DNA of 32,000 nt from Thermoproteus tenax Kra 1 (GTDB lineage Archaea; Thermoproteota; Thermoprotei; Thermoproteales; Thermoproteaceae): positions 60,001 to 92,000 of the forward strand of contig NC_016070.1 of assembly GCF_000253055.1 (NCBI RefSeq), read 5' to 3'. Each line of letters starts with the position of its first letter. Position 1 is the first letter of the stretch. This document shows positions 1 to 32,000 of this stretch, piece after piece. The notes below the pieces were generated by a model. That model did not search any database. It had not been told where the DNA came from and worked only from the letters and a program-made list of their open reading frames with translations. A program made the translations under genes and the position numbers.

Positions 1-67
1 CTCCCGGTTATGAGCCATACGCGGGACTTCGTCCCTGGGCGCTCCAACCAGGCTGAGCTACCCCCGC
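1..67 (-). tRNA. tRNA with CAT anticodon (elongator Met or Ile2), 5' portion only. It is interrupted by a ~20-nt non-canonical intron, and the 3' part lies beyond the window start.
   Basis: The reverse complement of 1-67 reads GCGGGGG TA GCTC AGCCTGGTTG GAGC G CCC[AGGGACGAAGTCCCGCGTAT]GG CTCATAA CCGGG AG. The acceptor strand, D arm and CAT anticodon loop are clear. The anticodon stem CCCGG/CCGGG forms only if the bracketed 20 nt are removed. Confidence 0.75.
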
Positions 68-98: not shown

Positions 99-134
99 TG
101 CCGGCGATCGCGCGAAAGAGATAAAGCGGGCCAG

Positions 135-207
135 TGGGCCCGCCGGGATTCGAACCCGGGATCTCCCGCGCGTGAGGCGGGCATCCTAGCCGCTAGACTA
201 CGGGCCC
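135..207 (-). tRNA. tRNA-Val (anticodon CAC)
   Basis: The reverse complement reads GGGCCCG TA GTCT AGCGGCTAGGAT G CCCGC CTCACGC GCGGG AGATC CCGGG TTCGAAT CCCGG CGGGCCC A. This gives a complete cloverleaf with a 7-bp acceptor stem and a canonical T loop. CCA is not encoded. Confidence 0.93.
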
Positions 208-243: not shown

Positions 244-480
244 TGCCCGTTTATCCCTAGGCGCTCATTATTGACAACCTTTGACTCGCGCCCAGGGACT
301 TCCTCCTCGTCCGCGCCTTCACGGGCACCCGAGGTGCCTCCGGCGCGGCGCCATCGGGCATGGGGGGCAACGGCACTGCCCCCTCTCCTCCAGTCGGGGC
401 AGAGCCCCTCATGGAACTGCCCCTCACCGCCGTACACGTATTTAAGCCCTCCGCCCGCGCCGAAGACGCAGGGTTTTCCT
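244..480 (-). ncRNA. Candidate structured non-coding RNA of unassigned family, containing a K-turn and an RNase P CR-I-like motif
   Basis: No credible ORF is present. The minus strand folds into a chain of perfect or near-perfect helices: 472-467/459-454, 423-417/402-396, 383-377/369-363, 360-355/249-244, 350-308 and 299-253. Several G.U pairs would be C.A mismatches on the plus strand. The locus is GC-rich relative to flanking spacers. Confidence 0.5.
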
Positions 481-592
481 CAACGATAAGAAGTATGAAA
501 CAGCCTCAGTGGCGCTCTTTGGCCCAGAGCGACGGCTCTATAGTCGTTTAAGCCGCAAGAGAGGCGGTGCACTCTTCCGTTTCTCAACTCCT

Positions 593-619
593 TAGCGCCG
601 TATCTCACTAACGGCGCTA
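593..619. other. Perfect 9-bp inverted repeat or hairpin (TAGCGCCGT-N9-ACGGCGCTA)
   Basis: It is read directly from the sequence. It lies in the long non-coding stretch between the structured locus and the radical-SAM gene. Confidence 0.6.
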
Positions 620-703
620 TAGAGCTGTTCCTCCATATACGGCATAGGTCGGGGCGCCTTTTCTAACTCGCTGTCGATAAGGCACTACATCGGAGAAATT
701 TGC

Positions 704-1876
704 GTGTCCCGGCACGGCGAGCTCGACGAGAGGGATCAGCAGATAAATATAGTAGTCGACAAAGACATGGATCCCCGCAAGCTCGCCGCAGAGTTCGACA
801 GAAGGCCTCTGCTGGTGTTCTGGGAGTCCACTAAGGCGTGCCCGCTGGCGTGTAAACATTGTAGAGCCGACGCGATATTGAGGCCGTTGCCGGGGGAGTT
901 GGCCACTTGGGAGGCTAAGGCGCTGTTTGAGCAGATTACTGAGTTCGGCAAGCCGTATCCAGAGGTCATAATCACGGGAGGCGACCCTCTAATGAGGATG
1001 GACCTCTTCGAGCTCCTAGATTACGCAAAGGAGCTGGGGCTGCCGGTCTCGCTCGCCCCAGCTGTCTCTAAGAACTTGTTGGACGCCGTACCCGAGCTCA
1101 GAGGGAGAATAAAGAGCGCCTCGGTGAGCCTCGATGGGCTTAAGGCGACGCACGAGGAGATCAGGGGGGTCCCCGGGATATTCGACCAGACTCTGGAGGC
1201 GATTAAGGCGCTTCTCGGCGAGGGGATAAAGGTCCAAGTAAATACATTGGTATGGCGCAAGTCTCTACAGGAGCTTCCCGACGTCCTGAAGCTCATATAT
1301 GATCTAGGCGTGAGAGTGTGGGAGGTCTTCTTCCTGATAGAGACGGGGCGCGCCGTTAAGTCCCTCGACATAACGCCGCAGGAGTACGAGGACGTTGTCC
1401 AGTTCTTGGTCGACGTCTCAAGATACGGCGTCCAAGTAAGGACCGTTGAGGCGCCCTTTTACAGGAGGGCCAAGAGGTTGAGAGCCCAGGGGATGGCGTA
1501 CAGCTCGCCCCTATACGATAGGTTAGTCTCTAGGCTAAGGGAATTGATGGGAGATCCGCAGAGGCCCTTGGACCCAGCCGTAGTGCCCACCAGGGATGGC
1601 CACGGCATTATCTTCGTCGCATACGATGGGACTGTGTTTCCCAGCGGCTTCCTCCCCTATCCCCTAGGGAACGTGAGGAGGGAGTCCCTCGTCAAGATAT
1701 ACAGAGAGCACCCGCTTTTGTTGAAGATGAGACGGGGGGAGTTCGGCGGAAGATGCGGCGTCTGTGAGTTCAGAGACATCTGCGGCGGGTCTAGGGCGAG
1801 GGCGTTCGCCGCATTTAAGGATCCCTTGGCCGAGGATCCAGCTTGTATATATATACCAAACAAAAAATCTAATTAA
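704..1876 (+). CDS. Radical SAM enzyme with a C-terminal auxiliary-cluster (SPASM / NirJ-AhbD-like) domain
   Basis: It carries CPLACKHC (the CxxxCxxC motif), a GGDPL motif, and a C-terminal CGVCEFRDICGGSRARAF plus ACIY. The ORF track start is GTG-704. ATG-767 (MDPRKLAAEFDRRPLLVFWE) is a plausible alternative start. Confidence 0.85.
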   Translation: MSRHGELDERDQQINIVVDKDMDPRKLAAEFDRRPLLVFWESTKACPLACKHCRADAILRPLPGELATWEAKALFEQITEFGKPYPEVIITGGDPLMRMDLFELLDYAKELGLPVSLAPAVSKNLLDAVPELRGRIKSASVSLDGLKATHEEIRGVPGIFDQTLEAIKALLGEGIKVQVNTLVWRKSLQELPDVLKLIYDLGVRVWEVFFLIETGRAVKSLDITPQEYEDVVQFLVDVSRYGVQVRTVEAPFYRRAKRLRAQGMAYSSPLYDRLVSRLRELMGDPQRPLDPAVVPTRDGHGIIFVAYDGTVFPSGFLPYPLGNVRRESLVKIYREHPLLLKMRRGEFGGRCGVCEFRDICGGSRARAFAAFKDPLAEDPACIYIPNKKSN

Positions 1877-2794: not shown

Positions 2795-4447
2795 ATGAAA
2801 GTAATAGAAATCGAGAATCTTTTTGTCAAATATTTGGATCCTCCCAGACTTGCCCTTAAAGGGATCAGCCTGTCTGTTGAGGAGGGGGATTTCATCCTCC
2901 TGGTGGGGAGAACCGGCTCGGGCAAATCAACGTTGATTAACTCAATAAATGGAGTTATCCCGAACGTCATAAAGGCTGAGGCCAGGGGGAGAATATCGGT
3001 GTTTGGCAAAGATCCCAGGGAGTCTCCAGTTTACAAAACGGCGTTGGACGTCGGCACGGTATATCAAGTCCCCGAGAGCCAGATCTTCGCGCTAGTGGTA
3101 GAGGACGATGTGGCATTCGGCCTAGAGAATAGGGGCATGCCGCCCGAGGAGATGAGGGGGAGGGTCAGAGAGGCGTTAGAGCTGGTGGGCCTGTGGAGGA
3201 AGAGAGACCATCCGACGTTCTTGCTCAGCGGCGGCGAGAAACAGCGGCTGGTCATAGCCTCCATTCTGGCGCTGAAACCCAAGGTCTTGATACTTGACGA
3301 GCCCACCTCTATGTTGGACGCAATAGGCACCGAGGAGGTCTTCCAGCTCCTGCGCAAGTTGAACGAGGAGGGCATGACAATAATCGTTGCCGAGCATAAA
3401 GTTGAGTATTTGTTGCCCTTTGTGGACAGAGTTGTGGCGTTGGAGAACGGCGTGATAGCCCTGGATGAGGAGCCCCACAGAGCTGTAGCTAAGGGCTTGG
3501 CCAAGTTCGGTGTTGAGGAGCCGCAAGTGGCCGCTCTGCATCGTGCGGCCAAGCCTGACGACGCGCTCTGTCCCATAACTGTAGAGGAATTCTTCGAAGT
3601 GGACAAAGACGTTAAAATCGAGGTGATATCAGAGCGAGAGGCGCCATCGGGCGAGGCTATAGTCAAGGCCAACGGCGTTGTCTTCAAGTATCCGGGCAAC
3701 GAGGAGCCTACGCTCAGAGGCGTCGATCTGGAGATACCTGAGGGCGCCGTCGTAAGCGTGGTAGGCCCGAACGGCTCCGGTAAGAGCACTCTGATGTATT
3801 TGCTCGTCGGCCTGTACAGGCCGACCGCAGGCTCGGTGGAGATAGCCGGGAGGGCCCCGGCCGATCTGTCCGGCGCTGAGAGAGTGAGGTTGGTGGGCTA
3901 CGCCTTTCAAGACCCCGACCAGATGCTTATGAACGTGACAGTTAGGGCGGAGATAGAGATGTCCCTGAGGTTGGCGGGATACAGAGGGAGGGCGCTCAAA
4001 AGCGTGGCGGAACAAGTGGCCAAAGAGTTGGGCATAGGCGATCTGCTCGAGAGAAGCCCCCACAAGCTCTCCGTGGGGCAGAGGCGGTTAGTCAGCCTGG
4101 CCGCCGTCCTGGCGCCGTCGCCGAGAGTGCTCATACTCGACGAGCCAACGCGGGGGCTTGATAGAGAGACTGCGGAGGTCACTATGAAGTACCTAATGTC
4201 GATAAGGAGGGAGCGCCGAATGACCATAATCATGGTCAGTCACGACATGAGACAAGTCGGTGATTACAGCGAGCTTGTCTACGTCATGTACGGCGGAAGG
4301 ATAGCCTACAAGGGATCTCCCGAGGACGTCTTCGCCGAGGCTGAGAAACATAGAGAGTGGGGCTTAAGCGCGCCGCAAGTGTACTGGGTCACGAGGCGCC
4401 ACGGGAAGAGATCGGCGAGTTTAAAGTTTGTAAGAGCCTATGTCTGA
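2795..4447 (+). CDS. ecfA: ECF transporter ATPase with two fused ABC cassettes (EcfA-EcfA' / CbiO-type)
   Basis: Walker A motifs are GRTGSGKST and GPNGSGKST, signature motifs are LSGGEKQR and LSVGQRR, and the Walker B motif ILDEPT occurs twice. Confidence 0.88.
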   Translation: MKVIEIENLFVKYLDPPRLALKGISLSVEEGDFILLVGRTGSGKSTLINSINGVIPNVIKAEARGRISVFGKDPRESPVYKTALDVGTVYQVPESQIFALVVEDDVAFGLENRGMPPEEMRGRVREALELVGLWRKRDHPTFLLSGGEKQRLVIASILALKPKVLILDEPTSMLDAIGTEEVFQLLRKLNEEGMTIIVAEHKVEYLLPFVDRVVALENGVIALDEEPHRAVAKGLAKFGVEEPQVAALHRAAKPDDALCPITVEEFFEVDKDVKIEVISEREAPSGEAIVKANGVVFKYPGNEEPTLRGVDLEIPEGAVVSVVGPNGSGKSTLMYLLVGLYRPTAGSVEIAGRAPADLSGAERVRLVGYAFQDPDQMLMNVTVRAEIEMSLRLAGYRGRALKSVAEQVAKELGIGDLLERSPHKLSVGQRRLVSLAAVLAPSPRVLILDEPTRGLDRETAEVTMKYLMSIRRERRMTIIMVSHDMRQVGDYSELVYVMYGGRIAYKGSPEDVFAEAEKHREWGLSAPQVYWVTRRHGKRSASLKFVRAYV

Positions 4448-18395: not shown

Positions 18396-19043
18396 GTGGA
18401 GCCCTACTGCAACTTCGACGCAGCCGCGGAGAACGTGAGAGAGCTGTTGTACGACGAATTGGCGGAGCTGTACTGGGATATGCCCCGGAGGGAGATAGAG
18501 ACCGTCGTGGACATCGCCTGGAGGGACTTCCTCCACTATTTGTCCTACAAGTCGGGTATATACCTATCTCCGCGCTTCAGGGAGGACAGGGCGCGCCAAA
18601 GGCTCTGTGTATACATAATGAGCAAGTGGGACAAAGTGAGAGAGCTTGCTTCGGAGTGGATCGTCATGTGGTCGGCTAAGTGGCGCCAAAGGGTCAAGTT
18701 GGTCTTCAGCGATGAGGAGTTCAAGAGGGCCTCAGCCTCTGAGGACTCCCTCAAGCCCCACAAGAAACTTGATGAGTTCTTGGCCAAGACGGACCATCTG
18801 GAGCTTCAGCTCTTCACAGTGTCGAACTTAGTAAAGGCGGGCGAGCTCGCCGGCTTAGACCAGATTGCGGACTACATCATCAGAGACGAGGCCAACGCCC
18901 TCCTGCATCAATACGGCCTGGAGAAGGCCCTGGAGAAATACAGAGAGGGCGTATTGGCCGAGAGGATTCTGAGGAGGATAAAGAGCTTGAGCAAGGTCTC
19001 AGAGCCTCTCCTGATCATCAGAGTGGATGTGACTAGAGCCTAG
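18396..19043 (+). CDS. Hypothetical protein (helical, charged)
   Basis: The GTG start lies about 20 nt after TTTTTAAATAG. The 215 aa are non-repetitive. I recognise no motif. Confidence 0.5.
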   Translation: MEPYCNFDAAAENVRELLYDELAELYWDMPRREIETVVDIAWRDFLHYLSYKSGIYLSPRFREDRARQRLCVYIMSKWDKVRELASEWIVMWSAKWRQRVKLVFSDEEFKRASASEDSLKPHKKLDEFLAKTDHLELQLFTVSNLVKAGELAGLDQIADYIIRDEANALLHQYGLEKALEKYREGVLAERILRRIKSLSKVSEPLLIIRVDVTRA

Positions 19044-31226: not shown

Positions 31227-32000
31227 ATGAGCATTAGAGCGCCCATAGCAGTCGTAGTGGGGCACGTAGACGTGGGGAAGACCCTCCTTCTAGATAAGAT
31301 AAGGGGCACTGCTGTGGCCTACCGGGAGCCCGGCATGATAACGCAACACGTGGGGATGTCCTTCGTCCCGTGGGCGGCAGTGGAGAAGTTCGCAGGCCCT
31401 CTAGTGGATAAACTGAGGCTGAGGGGGAAGATATGGATCCCCGGCTTTCTCTTCATAGACACGCCGGGACACGCCGCTTTCTCCAACTTGAGGAAGAGGG
31501 GGGGTTCCGTGGCCGACGTGGCCGTGCTCGTCGTCGACATAACTTCGGGGCTCGAGGAACAAGGCCTTGAATCGCTCAACCTCATCAGAGCAAGAGGAGT
31601 GCCCTTCGTGATAGCGGCCAACAAGTTGGACAGAATCTATGGGTGGAAGTCGGAGCAGAATAGGCCGTTTCTCTTTTCAGTGGAACAACAAGACTGGCAC
31701 GCAGTCTCGTTGCTCGAGGAGTCCATCGGGAAGCTCATAGATCAACTGTCCAGGCTCGGCATAGAGGCGGATAGATATGATAGAGTCAGAGACTTTGCAC
31801 AACAAGTCCCTATAGTGCCCACGAGCGCCGTGACGGGCGAAGGCATAGCGGACCTACTCCTGACATTAGCCGGCATATCGCAGAGGTTTGTCTCAAAGGA
31901 GAAGCTCGCCGTCAGAGAGGGGCCCGCGAGAGGCGTTGTGATGGAGGTAAAGGAGGAGAGGGGGCTTGGCACCGTGTTGGACGCCATAATCTACGACGGA
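31227..32000 (+). CDS. infB: Translation initiation factor aIF5B (IF-2), N-terminal part; the ORF runs off the window end and is not in the ORF track
   Basis: Manual translation gives [27 protein letters not shown]...[10 protein letters not shown]...AANKLDR. These are the G1 (GHVDVGKT), G3 (DTPGH) and G4 (NKLD) motifs. Confidence 0.9.

What the first reader, a model, noticed from the sequence alone, without database searches (positions are those of the whole stretch)
308..350. Textbook kink-turn (Kt-7-like) inside the structured locus, implying an L7Ae-binding RNA
The minus-strand hairpin reads CGCCGCGCC-GGA-GGCACC-UCG-GGUGCC-CGUGAA-GGCGCGG-ACG. Its parts match a K-turn as follows:
- C-stem: 338-333 paired with 329-324, closed by C324-G338.
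- 3-nt bulge: C323 G322 U321.
- Tandem sheared pairs: G320.A339 and A319.G340.
- An A318.G341 3b.3n pair.
- A 7-bp NC stem: 348-342 paired with 317-311.

This is the consensus K-turn geometry bound by archaeal L7Ae in C/D and H/ACA sRNAs, rRNA and RNase P RNA. A perfect K-turn is unlikely in random spacer, so it argues that the locus is a functional RNP RNA. I find no C/D boxes and no ACA box in the expected positions, so it does not look like a standard guide sRNA.
Basis: partly seen in the sequence, partly recalled or inferred. Interest (0 to 1): 0.65.

Follow-up and report, generated by a model that had tools for sequence, protein, structure and literature searches.

The report
K-turn arm of unannotated archaeal RNA
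The kink-turn is really there and sits in one arm of a conserved, previously unannotated small structured RNA of a hot-spring archaeon, but a related copy of that RNA lacks the kink-turn, so it looks like an optional protein-binding add-on and not the core of the RNA's function.

Summary
Minus strand 350->308 folds into a hairpin whose internal loop has the Kt-7 layout. A motif this good is expected about 0.03 times per shuffled 32-kb window, or 1-2 times per genome, so on its own it proves nothing.

Comparative data show it lies inside a real RNA gene of about 173 nt, window ~418->246, minus strand. The gene has a TATA-like box and four hairpins (A-D). Two homologues were found in uncultured archaea, L006 and L032. 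Ten base pairs change on both sides and stay paired. No Rfam family matches and no ORF is conserved.

The K-turn hairpin (arm C) is kept in L006 with three compensatory pairs. However, L006 was found with a pattern that demanded the K-turn core. L032 was found through gene neighbourhood, independently of the K-turn, and has a different arm C with no K-turn.

A second G.A/A.G motif on top of helix D has its key bases conserved in all three copies.

The RNA fits neither C/D, canonical H/ACA, RNase P nor SRP RNA. The Pyrobaculum H/ACA-like hairpin is the closest module.

Best reading: an optional L7Ae-binding architectural K-turn in a new structured ncRNA family. The family's function lies in an invariant core, CGAGGNGGAAGUCCCU...AGGGAYAAACGG.

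The parts
439..446 (-). TATA-like box CTTAAATA, 26 nt upstream of the first conserved bases (AUGAGGGGC, 412-404).
   Evidence: Sequence reading. L006 (GUUUAUAA) and L032 (GUUUAUUA) have equivalent boxes 26-32 nt upstream of their (AU)GAGGGG. The promoter role is inferred.
246..418 (-). Proposed ncRNA gene, about 173 nt. The ends are approximate: the 5' end comes from the TATA spacing, and the 3' end comes from the end of conservation (AAACGG, 252-247) and the tRNA-Val promoter at about 227-237.
   Evidence: Homologues L006 3609-3790(-) and L032 3935-4137(+). Model R1 scores 156.6, 169.9 and 119.4 bits. MFE z-scores are -2.5, -5.75 and -4.7. No Rfam family matches. No called or conserved ORF.
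396..408 (-). Hairpin A: GGGGC-UCU-GCCCC, preceded by AUGA.
   Evidence: MFE. AUGAGGGGC..GCCC(C/U) is shared with L006. The 5' domain is much larger and different in L032.
363..383 (-). Hairpin B: stem 383-378/368-363, plus A377-U369 in the window only. The loop GUGCCGU (376-370) is invariant.
   Evidence: 6 pairs, 4 of them changed on both sides, 100% of cells paired. The loop is identical in all three sequences.
355..357 (-). 5' strand of short helix Px (C357, C356, G355), pairing with 302-304. Px closes the junction that carries arm C.
   Evidence: C-G and C-G are invariant. The third pair is U-A in L006, A-U in L032 and G.A in the window. That swap accounts for the only substitution inside the otherwise invariant CGAGGNGGAAG.
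308..350 (-). Arm C, the K-turn hairpin of the finding. NC stem 348-342/311-317. G341.A318, G340.A319, A339.G320. Bulge C323 G322 U321. C stem 338-333/324-329. Loop 332-330. Possible extension G349-C309 and C350-G308 with A310 bulged.
   Evidence: Against L006 there are compensatory changes at 344/315 (G-C to C-G), 336/326 (C-G to U-A) and 334/328 (C-G to G-C). Pair 346/313 goes G-C to G.U, the loop goes UCG to AGU, and L1 goes C to A. Arm C is not conserved in L032.
300..309 (-). Invariant junction CGAGGAGGAA. It includes the Px 3' strand at 304-302 and runs straight into helix D (GUCCCU).
   Evidence: Identical in the window and L006, with one covarying substitution in L032. In my metagenome pattern only AGGAGGAAG was forced. 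The flanking CG and GUCCCU were not.
253..299 (-). Hairpin D: a 12-bp stem (299-288/253-264) and a 23-nt loop. On top of the stem sit tandem G287.A265 and A286.G266, preceded on the 3' strand by A269 A268 U267. This is a K-loop-like motif.
   Evidence: 12 pairs, 100% of cells paired, 2 compensatory and 3 one-sided changes; the lower 6 bp are invariant. Columns 104 (A) and 127-128 and 130-133 (AA, GAGC) are invariant, and 103 is G/A/G. Loop length is 23, 29 and 31 nt in the three sequences.
247..254 (-). Conserved 3' tail A(U/C)AAACGG. ACGG (250-247) can pair with CCGU (373-370) of loop B, giving a candidate pseudoknot.
   Evidence: Invariant in the three sequences. The 4 candidate pairs never vary, so they are neither supported nor refuted (helix 2).
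134..207 (-). tRNA-Val(CAC) immediately downstream, with its own A-rich TATA-like box at about 227-237. It is context only, not part of the RNA.
   Evidence: No tRNA lies next to the homologues in L006 or L032 (sequence reading).

Best explanation
Positions 350-308 (minus strand) form a genuine simple K-turn. It lies in the variable arm (arm C) of an independently transcribed, compactly folded ncRNA of about 170-215 nt. This RNA belongs to a family that is not in Rfam.

Proposed working:
- The RNA folds into hairpins A and B, a three-way junction closed by the 3-bp helix Px that carries arm C, and a long helix D.
- The invariant loop of B (GUGCCGU) probably pairs with the invariant 3' tail (AAACGG).
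- In Thermoproteus tenax and in the L006 organism, L7Ae binds the arm-C K-turn. It kinks the arm by about 120 degrees and locks the junction at high temperature. This is the architectural role L7Ae plays at the movable K-turns of archaeal RNase P and SRP RNAs.
- The family's actual function, which is still unknown, resides in the invariant core CGAGGNGGAAGUCCCU...(A)AUGAGC...CUAGGGAYAAACGG. It most likely involves base pairing or protein recognition.
- That core includes a second G.A/A.G motif on helix D. This may be the family-wide L7Ae site.

Shown: the motif, the gene-like conservation, the helices, and the loss of the K-turn in L032.

Inferred: transcription, L7Ae binding, the pseudoknot, and the architectural role.
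For: - The motif is exact and is the only such hit in the window.
- The host RNA is conserved in L006 and L032. 91.8% of cells are paired, and 10 pairs are changed on both sides. None of 500 shuffles reaches the observed values, and slid controls give 3 or fewer.
- Transcript-sized pieces fold better than shuffles, with z = -2.5, -5.75 and -4.7. They keep hairpins A, C and D in each sequence; B is kept in the window and L006 but is largely repaired with the 3' tail in the L032 fold.
- TATA-like boxes sit at the same distance in all three sequences.
- G.U pairs and the G.A pairs exist only on this strand.
- Both stems of arm C carry compensatory changes between the window and L006, at positions the search pattern left free.
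- Arm C is the most variable part of the RNA: 38-67% identity, against 63-76% for the rest without loop D. It is replaced in L032. This matches the behaviour of peripheral K-turn helices in RNase P RNAs, whose K-turn positions differ between types (PMC13462272).
- L7Ae is known to bind many ncRNAs, including 6 unknown sRNAs in Sulfolobus RIP-seq (PMC5539422).
- Helix D carries the invariant A...AA(U/C)GAG G.A/A.G signature in all three sequences.
Against: - Only three sequences were found, and one of them was ascertained by the K-turn pattern. Conservation of the G.A/A.G core therefore has no independent support.
- The only independent homologue lacks the K-turn.
- A motif of this quality is expected 1-2 times per genome by chance.
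- There are no expression data and no L7Ae binding data.
- The function of the host RNA is unknown.
- The loop B-tail pairing never varies.
- The helix-D motif has a 23-31-nt loop in place of a C helix, and L006 has A.A at 2b.2n. Both are atypical for L7Ae sites.
Confidence: 0.45

Rival explanations
1. Arm C with its flanks is a Pyrobaculum-type H/ACA-like pseudouridylation guide. L7Ae would bind the K-turn, Cbf5-Nop10-Gar1 would assemble on the 9-11-layer 'GA stem', and the conserved 3' flank (A)CGAGGAGGAAG would pair with rRNA or tRNA to place a uridine at the base of the stem.
For: - The layout nearly fits the RNAMotif descriptors for Pae sR203-sR210: single-stranded 10 nt, 6-9-bp stem, one non-canonical pair, RANN, C stem, 3-4-nt loop, 6-7 nt ending in UGA, stem, single-stranded 18 nt (PMC4652768 supplement).
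- The 3' strand CGUGAA is the same as in Pae_sR202.
- The GA stem is within the published 8-13 range.
- These sRNAs often lack an ACA box and a lower stem.
- Thermoproteus is the sister group of Pyrobaculum.
- The 3' flank is invariant.
Against: - The hairpin is embedded in a conserved RNA of 170-215 nt, whereas the published H/ACA-like motifs are single K-turn hairpins flanked by about 10 and 18 single-stranded nt.
- There is no ANA box 14-16 nt after the stem; the window has C-C-C there.
- The inner C stem is 4 bp where the descriptors ask for 5-6.
- In L032 the K-turn and the 5' pocket strand are absent although the 'guide' CGAGGUGGAAG is kept. The conserved tract therefore cannot depend on an H/ACA pocket.
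- The single substitution in the 'guide' covaries with a base inside the RNA (Px), which points to intramolecular pairing.
- No target could be tested, because no rRNA was available.
Confidence: 0.15
2. Arm C is simply a variable structural arm of the ncRNA. Its asymmetric internal loop looks like a K-turn by coincidence or drift, and L7Ae plays no part.
For: A chance expectation of about 1-2 such motifs per genome. The arm is replaced by a K-turn-less hairpin in L032. The conservation in L006 was forced by the search pattern.
Against: - The loop carries the full Kt-7 core, including 3b.3n = A.G, the closing pair C-G, and L3 = U.
- The same geometry, with a 6-bp C stem, a 3-nt loop and a 3-nt bulge, is kept between a Thermoproteus and a differently composed uncultured archaeon, while 11 other positions of the hairpin changed.
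- In L7Ae-rich hyperthermophiles a perfect K-turn would almost certainly be bound (inference from PMC5539422).
Confidence: 0.2
3. The RNA is related to RNase P/MRP RNA. Arm C would be a P3-like variable hairpin followed by a CR-I-like tract (GAGGAAGUCC against the universal GAGGAAAGUCC), and the tail AGGGAYAAACGG would resemble CR-II (AGGGUGAAACGG). It could be an accessory or degenerate RNase P-type RNA in lineages with the reduced type T enzyme.
For: - Sequence resemblance of the two most conserved tracts to CR-I and CR-II. The consensus sequences are recalled from memory, so this is a lead only.
- The variable hairpin lies directly 5' of the CR-I-like tract, as P3 does.
- Type T RNase P RNAs lack CR-II, and no separate specificity component has been found (PMC13462272; PMC3579882).
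- L7Ae is an RNase P subunit.
Against: - No RNase P model scores even at E<=10 on 195-271-nt slices.
- The topology differs. The 'P4' strands form a local hairpin, the ACAAAC follows the helix where in RNase P it would precede it, and there are no P1/P2 and no P15-P17.
- T. tenax has a normal type T RNase P RNA scoring 124-167 bits with the type T model.
- There is no room 3' of the RNA, because the tRNA-Val promoter lies about 20 nt beyond the tail.
Confidence: 0.05
4. The region is a cis-acting leader or spacer co-transcribed with tRNA-Val, or a leftover of an integration event at the tRNA genes. It would then not be a gene of its own.
For: There is no oligo-T terminator between the RNA and tRNA-Val. 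The region upstream of the radical-SAM gene is not syntenic in the closest relatives. A 12-nt stretch (299-288) is complementary to the neighbouring intron-containing tRNA (31-42).
Against: - The homologues in L006 and L032 have no tRNA nearby and lie in other contexts and orientations.
- tRNA-Val has its own TATA-like box.
- The 12-mer lies in helix D, whose sequence covaries.
- Four complementarities of 12 nt or more occur in this window alone, so the tRNA match is at chance level.
Confidence: 0.05

Closest known systems
Simple K-turn, Kt-7 type (H. marismortui 23S rRNA), the L7Ae/L30e binding motif
   Same: Identical core letters and polarity: C helix closed by C-G, 3-nt bulge, G.A and A.G, 3b.3n = A.G, then the NC helix.
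   Different: Here the C helix is a 6-bp stem capped by a triloop, inside a small ncRNA. Geometry and protein binding were not measured.
Pyrobaculum H/ACA-like sRNAs sR203-sR210, and the canonical sR201/sR202 (Bernick 2012; Toffano-Nioche 2015, PMC4652768)
   Same: A single hairpin interrupted by a K-turn with ...GA.../...NGUGA-A..., a 7-9-bp basal stem plus one non-canonical pair, a short C stem with a 3-4-nt loop, often no ACA box, and the same family of organisms.
   Different: Embedded in a longer conserved multi-hairpin RNA. No ANA box at +14-16. No conserved pocket. The K-turn is absent in one homologue while the flanking tract stays invariant. No target was identified.
Peripheral K-turns of archaeal RNase P RNA (P12, P16/P17) and of Sulfolobales SRP RNA helix 5
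   Same: An L7Ae site placed in a variable helix of a larger structured RNA. It is present at different places, or absent, in different lineages and has an architectural or chaperone role.
   Different: The host RNA is neither RNase P nor SRP RNA by covariance models.
K-turn in the 5' UTR of l7ae mRNA and other mRNAs (L7Ae translational autoregulation, PMC5539422)
   Same: A stand-alone K-turn hairpin outside the classical guide RNAs.
   Different: No conserved ORF overlaps or follows it. The downstream gene is a tRNA.

Membership tests
K-turn (simple, Kt-7-like) | Watson-Crick C helix ending in a -1b.-1n pair, followed by a 3-nt bulge on one strand. | tested here: met
   338-333/324-329 closed by G338-C324. 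Bulge C323 G322 U321.
K-turn (simple, Kt-7-like) | Tandem G.A/A.G at 1b.1n and 2b.2n, followed by the NC helix. | tested here: met
   G320.A339 and A319.G340, then A318.G341 and 7 bp. The trans sugar-Hoogsteen geometry itself cannot be tested with these tools.
K-turn (simple, Kt-7-like) | Core conserved among homologues while the helices covary. | tested here: inconclusive
   Kept in L006 with 3 compensatory pairs, but the core was demanded by the search pattern. Absent in L032, which was found independently.
K-turn (simple, Kt-7-like) | Binding of L7Ae. | not testable with these tools
   Needs EMSA, footprinting or RIP-seq.
Box C/D sRNA | C box RUGAUGA and D box CUGA forming the terminal K-turn, plus C'/D' boxes and 10-12-nt guides. 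| tested here: not met
   No such boxes in 246-418 on either strand (sequence reading). No Rfam C/D hit above noise.
Canonical archaeal H/ACA sRNA | Lower stem of 5-9 bp, pseudouridylation pocket, and an ANA box 14-16 nt 3' of the upper stem. | tested here: not met
   Only the 3-bp Px helix. Positions +14 to +16 after G311 are C297 C296 C295. The 5' pocket strand is absent in L032.
Pyrobaculum H/ACA-like sRNA (sR203-sR210) | Hairpin geometry of the published RNAMotif descriptors: 6-9-bp stem, one non-canonical pair, RANN, 5-6-bp helix, 3-4-nt loop, 6-7 nt ending in UGA. | tested here: inconclusive
   All elements fit except the inner helix, which is 4 bp where 5-6 are asked for.
Pyrobaculum H/ACA-like sRNA (sR203-sR210) | A free-standing single-hairpin RNA whose single-stranded flanks are complementary to rRNA or tRNA around a target U. 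| tested here: not met
   The hairpin is part of a conserved RNA of 170-215 nt. The flank substitution covaries intramolecularly. Targets in rRNA could not be searched because no rRNA sequence was held.
RNase P RNA (archaeal type A/M/T) | A match to the covariance models; P1-P4 with long-range P4, P15-P17, and CR-I, CR-IV and CR-V. | tested here: not met
   No RNase P family at E<=10 in any of the three loci. Only a 10-nt CR-I-like word.
SRP (7S) RNA | A match to the Archaea_SRP model; helix 8 with a GNAR loop and conserved internal loops. | tested here: not met
   No hit.
L7Ae-regulated mRNA leader | A K-turn in the 5' UTR or start of a conserved ORF. | tested here: not met
   No protein in 5.8 billion matches any frame. 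Length differences between the homologues are not multiples of three. The downstream gene is tRNA-Val.

The most novel reading that the evidence does not exclude
The host RNA is a new class of compact, pseudoknotted archaeal RNP RNA that contains L7Ae. Its invariant core (GAGGNGGAAGUCCC ... AGGGAYAAACGG) would be functionally related to the CR-I and CR-II elements of RNase P. For example, it could be an accessory RNA or independent ribozyme acting with the reduced type T RNase P, which lacks CR-II and Rpp21, or it could act in another RNA-processing step.
Probability: 0.06. Interest if true: 0.85.

Novelty: new variant of a known kind. Interest (0 to 1): 0.5.

Why it matters
K-turns bound by L7Ae organise every major archaeal RNP: the ribosome, C/D and H/ACA guides, RNase P, and SRP in some lineages. 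A conserved, structured RNA of about 170 nt that carries a textbook K-turn yet fits none of these classes would add a new client to the L7Ae network in Thermoproteus. It also gives a concrete candidate among the 'unknown sRNAs' seen in L7Ae pull-downs in other Crenarchaeota.

The family further offers a natural experiment. One and the same RNA core occurs with and without the K-turn arm. This can show whether such K-turns are essential or are thermostabilising add-ons.

If the resemblance of its invariant core to RNase P conserved regions proved meaningful, it would bear on how the reduced type T RNase P works.

Tried and rejected
1. Known families. Rfam at gathering threshold and at E<=10, on the window, on 195-889-nt slices, and on both homologous loci. 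Only tRNA-Val and noise were found.

2. Synteny route through the downstream radical-SAM gene. This used genome contigs, one protein search and four contig look-ups, one of which found no record. Relatives at 65-84% identity (L001-L005) have different upstream neighbours and no copy of the RNA.

3. Coding reading. A concatenate of all six-frame ORFs over 198-608 has no match among 5.8 billion proteins. No frame is conserved.

4. Guide for the neighbouring intron-containing tRNA. The 12-nt complementarity (299-288 against 31-42) lies in a covarying helix. It is one of four complementarities of 12 nt or more in the window, so it is at chance level.

5. Canonical H/ACA folds for arm C or hairpin D (lower stem, pocket, ANA box). 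They do not fit, and the pocket is not conserved.

6. RNase P, type T or a permuted or split version. There is no model signal and the topology is wrong.

7. More homologues.
- Neighbours of the MFS gene in six further lineages (L035-L042) lack the RNA.
- Three viral-contig scans gave only chance hits in coding DNA.
- PLSDB plasmids gave no match.

8. Literature.
- A string search for the conserved words found only primers.
- The Bernick 2012 RNA paper is not held.
- The sR203-210 alignments in the Toffano-Nioche supplement are illegible in the stored text.

9. Taxon of L006 and L032. Cluster look-ups returned no organism names.
Full report
**1. What is in the sequence**

- 348-342 pairs with 311-317 (7 bp).
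- 338-333 pairs with 324-329 (6 bp, closed by G338-C324).
- The loop is U332 C331 G330.
- The 3' strand carries the extra C323 G322 U321.
- G320/A319/A318 face A339/G340/G341.

Polarity and core letters are those of a simple K-turn of the Kt-7 type (3b.3n = A.G); that comparison rests on my own knowledge. The 49-nt piece folds this way (-27.2 kcal/mol, 65% of the ensemble). On the plus strand the loop would be UUCACG/UCC, so the motif exists on the minus strand only.

**2. Is it more than chance?**

A purpose-written scan finds this as the only hit in the window once NC>=5 and C>=4 are required. The scan asks for an NC helix, N-G-A, a C helix, a loop, the C helix return, 3 nt, G-A-N, and the NC helix return.

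Dinucleotide-preserving shuffles give 0.027 hits of this quality per 32 kb on both strands, and 3e-4 per shuffled 208-703 region. Scaled to a 1.8-Mb genome, one or two such motifs are expected by chance. The motif alone therefore proves nothing, and comparative evidence is needed.

**3. Where we are**

The window carries the following:
- a tRNA cut by the window start (1-67, minus strand, CAU anticodon, with what reads as a non-canonical intron);
- tRNA-Val(CAC) at 134-207 on the minus strand;
- a 496-nt G+C-rich gap;
- a TIGR04053-type radical-SAM/SPASM gene at 704-1876 on the plus strand.

The best named relatives are Thermoproteus sp. (84%) and Pyrobaculum (72%). A member of the 99% identity cluster lies on an NCBI contig of 1,841,542 bp. 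That is the published size of the Thermoproteus tenax Kra1 chromosome (PMC3189178), so the window is almost certainly T. tenax.

No Rfam family other than tRNA matches the region, even at E<=10 on short slices.

**4. Finding relatives**

The region upstream of the radical-SAM gene is not syntenic in relatives at 65-84% identity. It holds no copy of the element there.

No predicted protein anywhere matches any reading frame across 198-608.

One metagenome scan was run with CCGGAGG-N9-15-CCNNTGAAGG-N8-AGGAGGAAG. That pattern fixes the K-turn core and part of the 3' flank and leaves the stems free. It returned a single contig, L006.

The MFS transporter gene next to the element in L006 led, through its 86% identical orthologue, to L032 (identical in L033). 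L032 carries a third copy in the opposite orientation relative to the MFS gene.

Six further MFS neighbourhoods (L035-L042) lack the element. Viral contigs and plasmids gave nothing real.

**5. The host RNA**

The three sequences align over about 150 nt of core (A2).

Shared features:
- a TATA-like box 26-32 nt upstream of (AU)GAGGGG;
- hairpin B with an invariant loop GUGCCGU;
- a short helix Px (CCN/N'GG) enclosing a variable arm C;
- an invariant tract CGAGGNGGAA running into helix D (GUCCCU...AGGGA, 12 bp);
- a 23-31-nt A-rich loop;
- an invariant tail A(Y)AAACGG.

On my structure, 91.8% of cells are standard pairs and 10 pairs have changed on both sides. None of 500 column shuffles reaches the observed values, and sliding the partners gives at most 3 such pairs.

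Helix by helix:
- Helix B has 4 compensatory pairs out of 6.
- Helix D has 2 compensatory and 3 one-sided changes.
- Px shows a U-A to A-U swap between L006 and L032. This explains the only substitution in the invariant tract. The window has G.A at that position.

Transcript-sized pieces fold into these hairpins with z = -2.5, -5.75 and -4.7. In the L032 fold, hairpin B is largely repaired with the 3' tail.

Other points:
- G.U pairs and the G.A pairs fix the strand.
- Length differences are not multiples of three and no frame stays open in all three sequences.
- The loop of B (CCGU) can pair with the tail (ACGG), but these bases never vary, so that pseudoknot remains a proposal.
- A covariance model built from A2 finds just these three copies in 116 kb of held sequence.

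The finding therefore lies inside a real, unannotated, structured ncRNA gene, window ~418-246 on the minus strand.

**6. How the K-turn behaves in the family**

Between the window and L006 the arm keeps its exact geometry while 11 positions change.
- 344/315 goes G-C to C-G.
- 336/326 goes C-G to U-A.
- 334/328 goes C-G to G-C.
- 346/313 goes G-C to G.U.
- The loop goes UCG to AGU.
- L1 goes C to A.

That is good evidence for the two helices. However, the six core purines, L3 and the two closing pairs of each helix were fixed by my search pattern. Their conservation in L006 is therefore not independent evidence.

L032 was reached without reference to the motif. Its arm C is CCCAC-GACCCG-CAGGG-AUACCCAAGA-CCCUG-UGGG. 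That gives two 5-bp helices separated by a 6-nt bulge on the 5' strand, with no tandem G.A and no 3-nt 3' bulge.

Arm C is the least conserved part of the RNA, at 38-67% identity. The rest without loop D is 63-76% identical. The K-turn is thus facultative: present in two lineages, absent in one.

**7. A second candidate L7Ae site**

On top of helix D all three sequences have, on the 5' strand, N-(G/A)-A. On the 3' strand they have A-A-(U/C)-G-A-G next to the stem. In the window these are G287.A265 and A286.G266, with A269 A268 U267 as the bulge-like bases.

A286, the AA and the GAG are invariant. This is the NC-side signature of a K-turn or K-loop. But the C helix is missing, replaced by a long loop, and L006 has A.A at 2b.2n. 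I treat it as a lead only.

**8. What it is not**

- Not a C/D sRNA, because there are no boxes.
- Not a canonical H/ACA sRNA. The lower helix is only 3 bp, positions +14 to +16 are CCC with no ANA box, and the 5' pocket strand is absent in L032.
- Not RNase P RNA. No model signal appears at E<=10. The two 'P4-like' strands form a local hairpin. There is no P1/P2 and no P15-17. T. tenax also has a regular type T RNase P RNA, whose K-turn is at P16/P17 (PMC3579882 and PMC13462272).
- Not SRP RNA.
- Not an mRNA leader.
- The 12-nt complementarity of 299-288 to the neighbouring tRNA (31-42) is one of four such matches in the window and lies in a covarying helix. I regard it as chance.

**9. What it most resembles**

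As a module, arm C is closest to the K-turn hairpins of the Pyrobaculum H/ACA-like sRNAs. The published RNAMotif descriptors fit except for one base pair in the inner helix. The 3' strand CGUGAA is the same as in Pae_sR202.

As a system, it behaves like the peripheral K-turns of RNase P and Sulfolobales SRP RNAs. These are L7Ae sites in variable helices of a larger structured RNA that differ between lineages.

The tract GAGGAAGUCC resembles the universal CR-I of RNase P, and AGGGAYAAACGG resembles CR-II. Both consensus sequences are recalled from memory, and covariance models do not support either resemblance. I keep this only as the most novel reading.

**10. Verdict**

The locus is a functional structured RNA, and the hairpin is a structurally maintained arm with a textbook K-turn in T. 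tenax and one other lineage. But the K-turn is not a constant of the family, and L7Ae binding is untested.

The best explanation (confidence 0.45) is an optional, L7Ae-bound architectural K-turn in arm C of a new ncRNA family whose function lies in its invariant core.

The rivals:
- H/ACA-like guide (0.15).
- K-turn look-alike without L7Ae (0.2).
- RNase P-related RNA (0.05).
- Leader or spacer (0.05).

I rate it a new variant of a known kind, with interest 0.5.

Noticed in passing
window 1-67 (minus strand): The 5' part of a tRNA, cut by the window start. It reads GCGGGGGUAGCUCAGCCUGGUUGGAGCGCCC[AGGGACGAAGUCCCGCGUAU]GGCUCAUAACCGGGAG. This looks like tRNA(CAU) with a 20-nt intron at a non-canonical position inside the anticodon stem. 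ARAGORN and Rfam do not report it.
   Followed up: partly
window 288-299 against 31-42; also 31952-31965, 3640-3652, 18522-18534: The RNA has four perfect complementarities of 12-14 nt to other places in the window. One of them falls on the exon/intron junction of the neighbouring tRNA, and another pairs GGAGGAAGUCCCU with a site inside the ORF at 18396-19043. I judged them chance-level, but the tRNA case was not tested in other genomes.
   Followed up: partly
window 420-703: The rest of the 496-nt gap holds further strong hairpins that are not shared with L006 or L032. Examples are CGCUCU-UUGGCCC-AGAGCG at 513-531 and GCGCCGU-AUCUCACUA-ACGGCGC at 595-617. Nothing is known about them, and no C/D boxes are present.
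   Followed up: no
L032 3783-3900 (plus strand), just upstream of the RNA copy: This stretch has C/D-box-like words: CUGAUGAG, GUGAAC, CGAUGAG, and CUGA at about 3893. It also has a weak nhmmer similarity (E = 0.002) to the GGAGGUCCCUAGG part of the RNA. It could be a neighbouring sRNA or a partial duplicate.
   Followed up: no
L006 compared with L032 and L037: The RNA gene is inverted relative to the MFS gene between L006 and L032, whose MFS proteins are 86% identical. It is absent from the same gap in L037 (83% identical). The RNA core of T. tenax is closer to L006 (75.6%) than L006 is to L032 (67.9%). The locus is mobile or fast-evolving, so horizontal transfer cannot be excluded.
   Followed up: partly
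L006 363-557 (plus strand): An ORF with CPxCG...CPRCG zinc-ribbon motifs that looks like the C-terminal end of a TnpB/OrfB-type transposon protein. It lies 3 kb from the RNA.
   Followed up: no
window 704-1876 and relatives L002-L005: Everything left of the radical-SAM/SPASM gene differs between T. tenax and its closest relatives: an ABC transporter in one, and DUF3800 or EVE-domain genes in others. The tRNA-Val / tRNA(CAU) / RNA block therefore sits at a synteny break.
   Followed up: partly
literature, PMC3189178: The T. tenax genome paper states that RNase P RNA and 7S RNA genes were not found with the Rfam of that time. RNase P RNA was later found as type T. I did not check whether the 7S RNA of this genome has since been located. 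It is not in this window.
   Followed up: no
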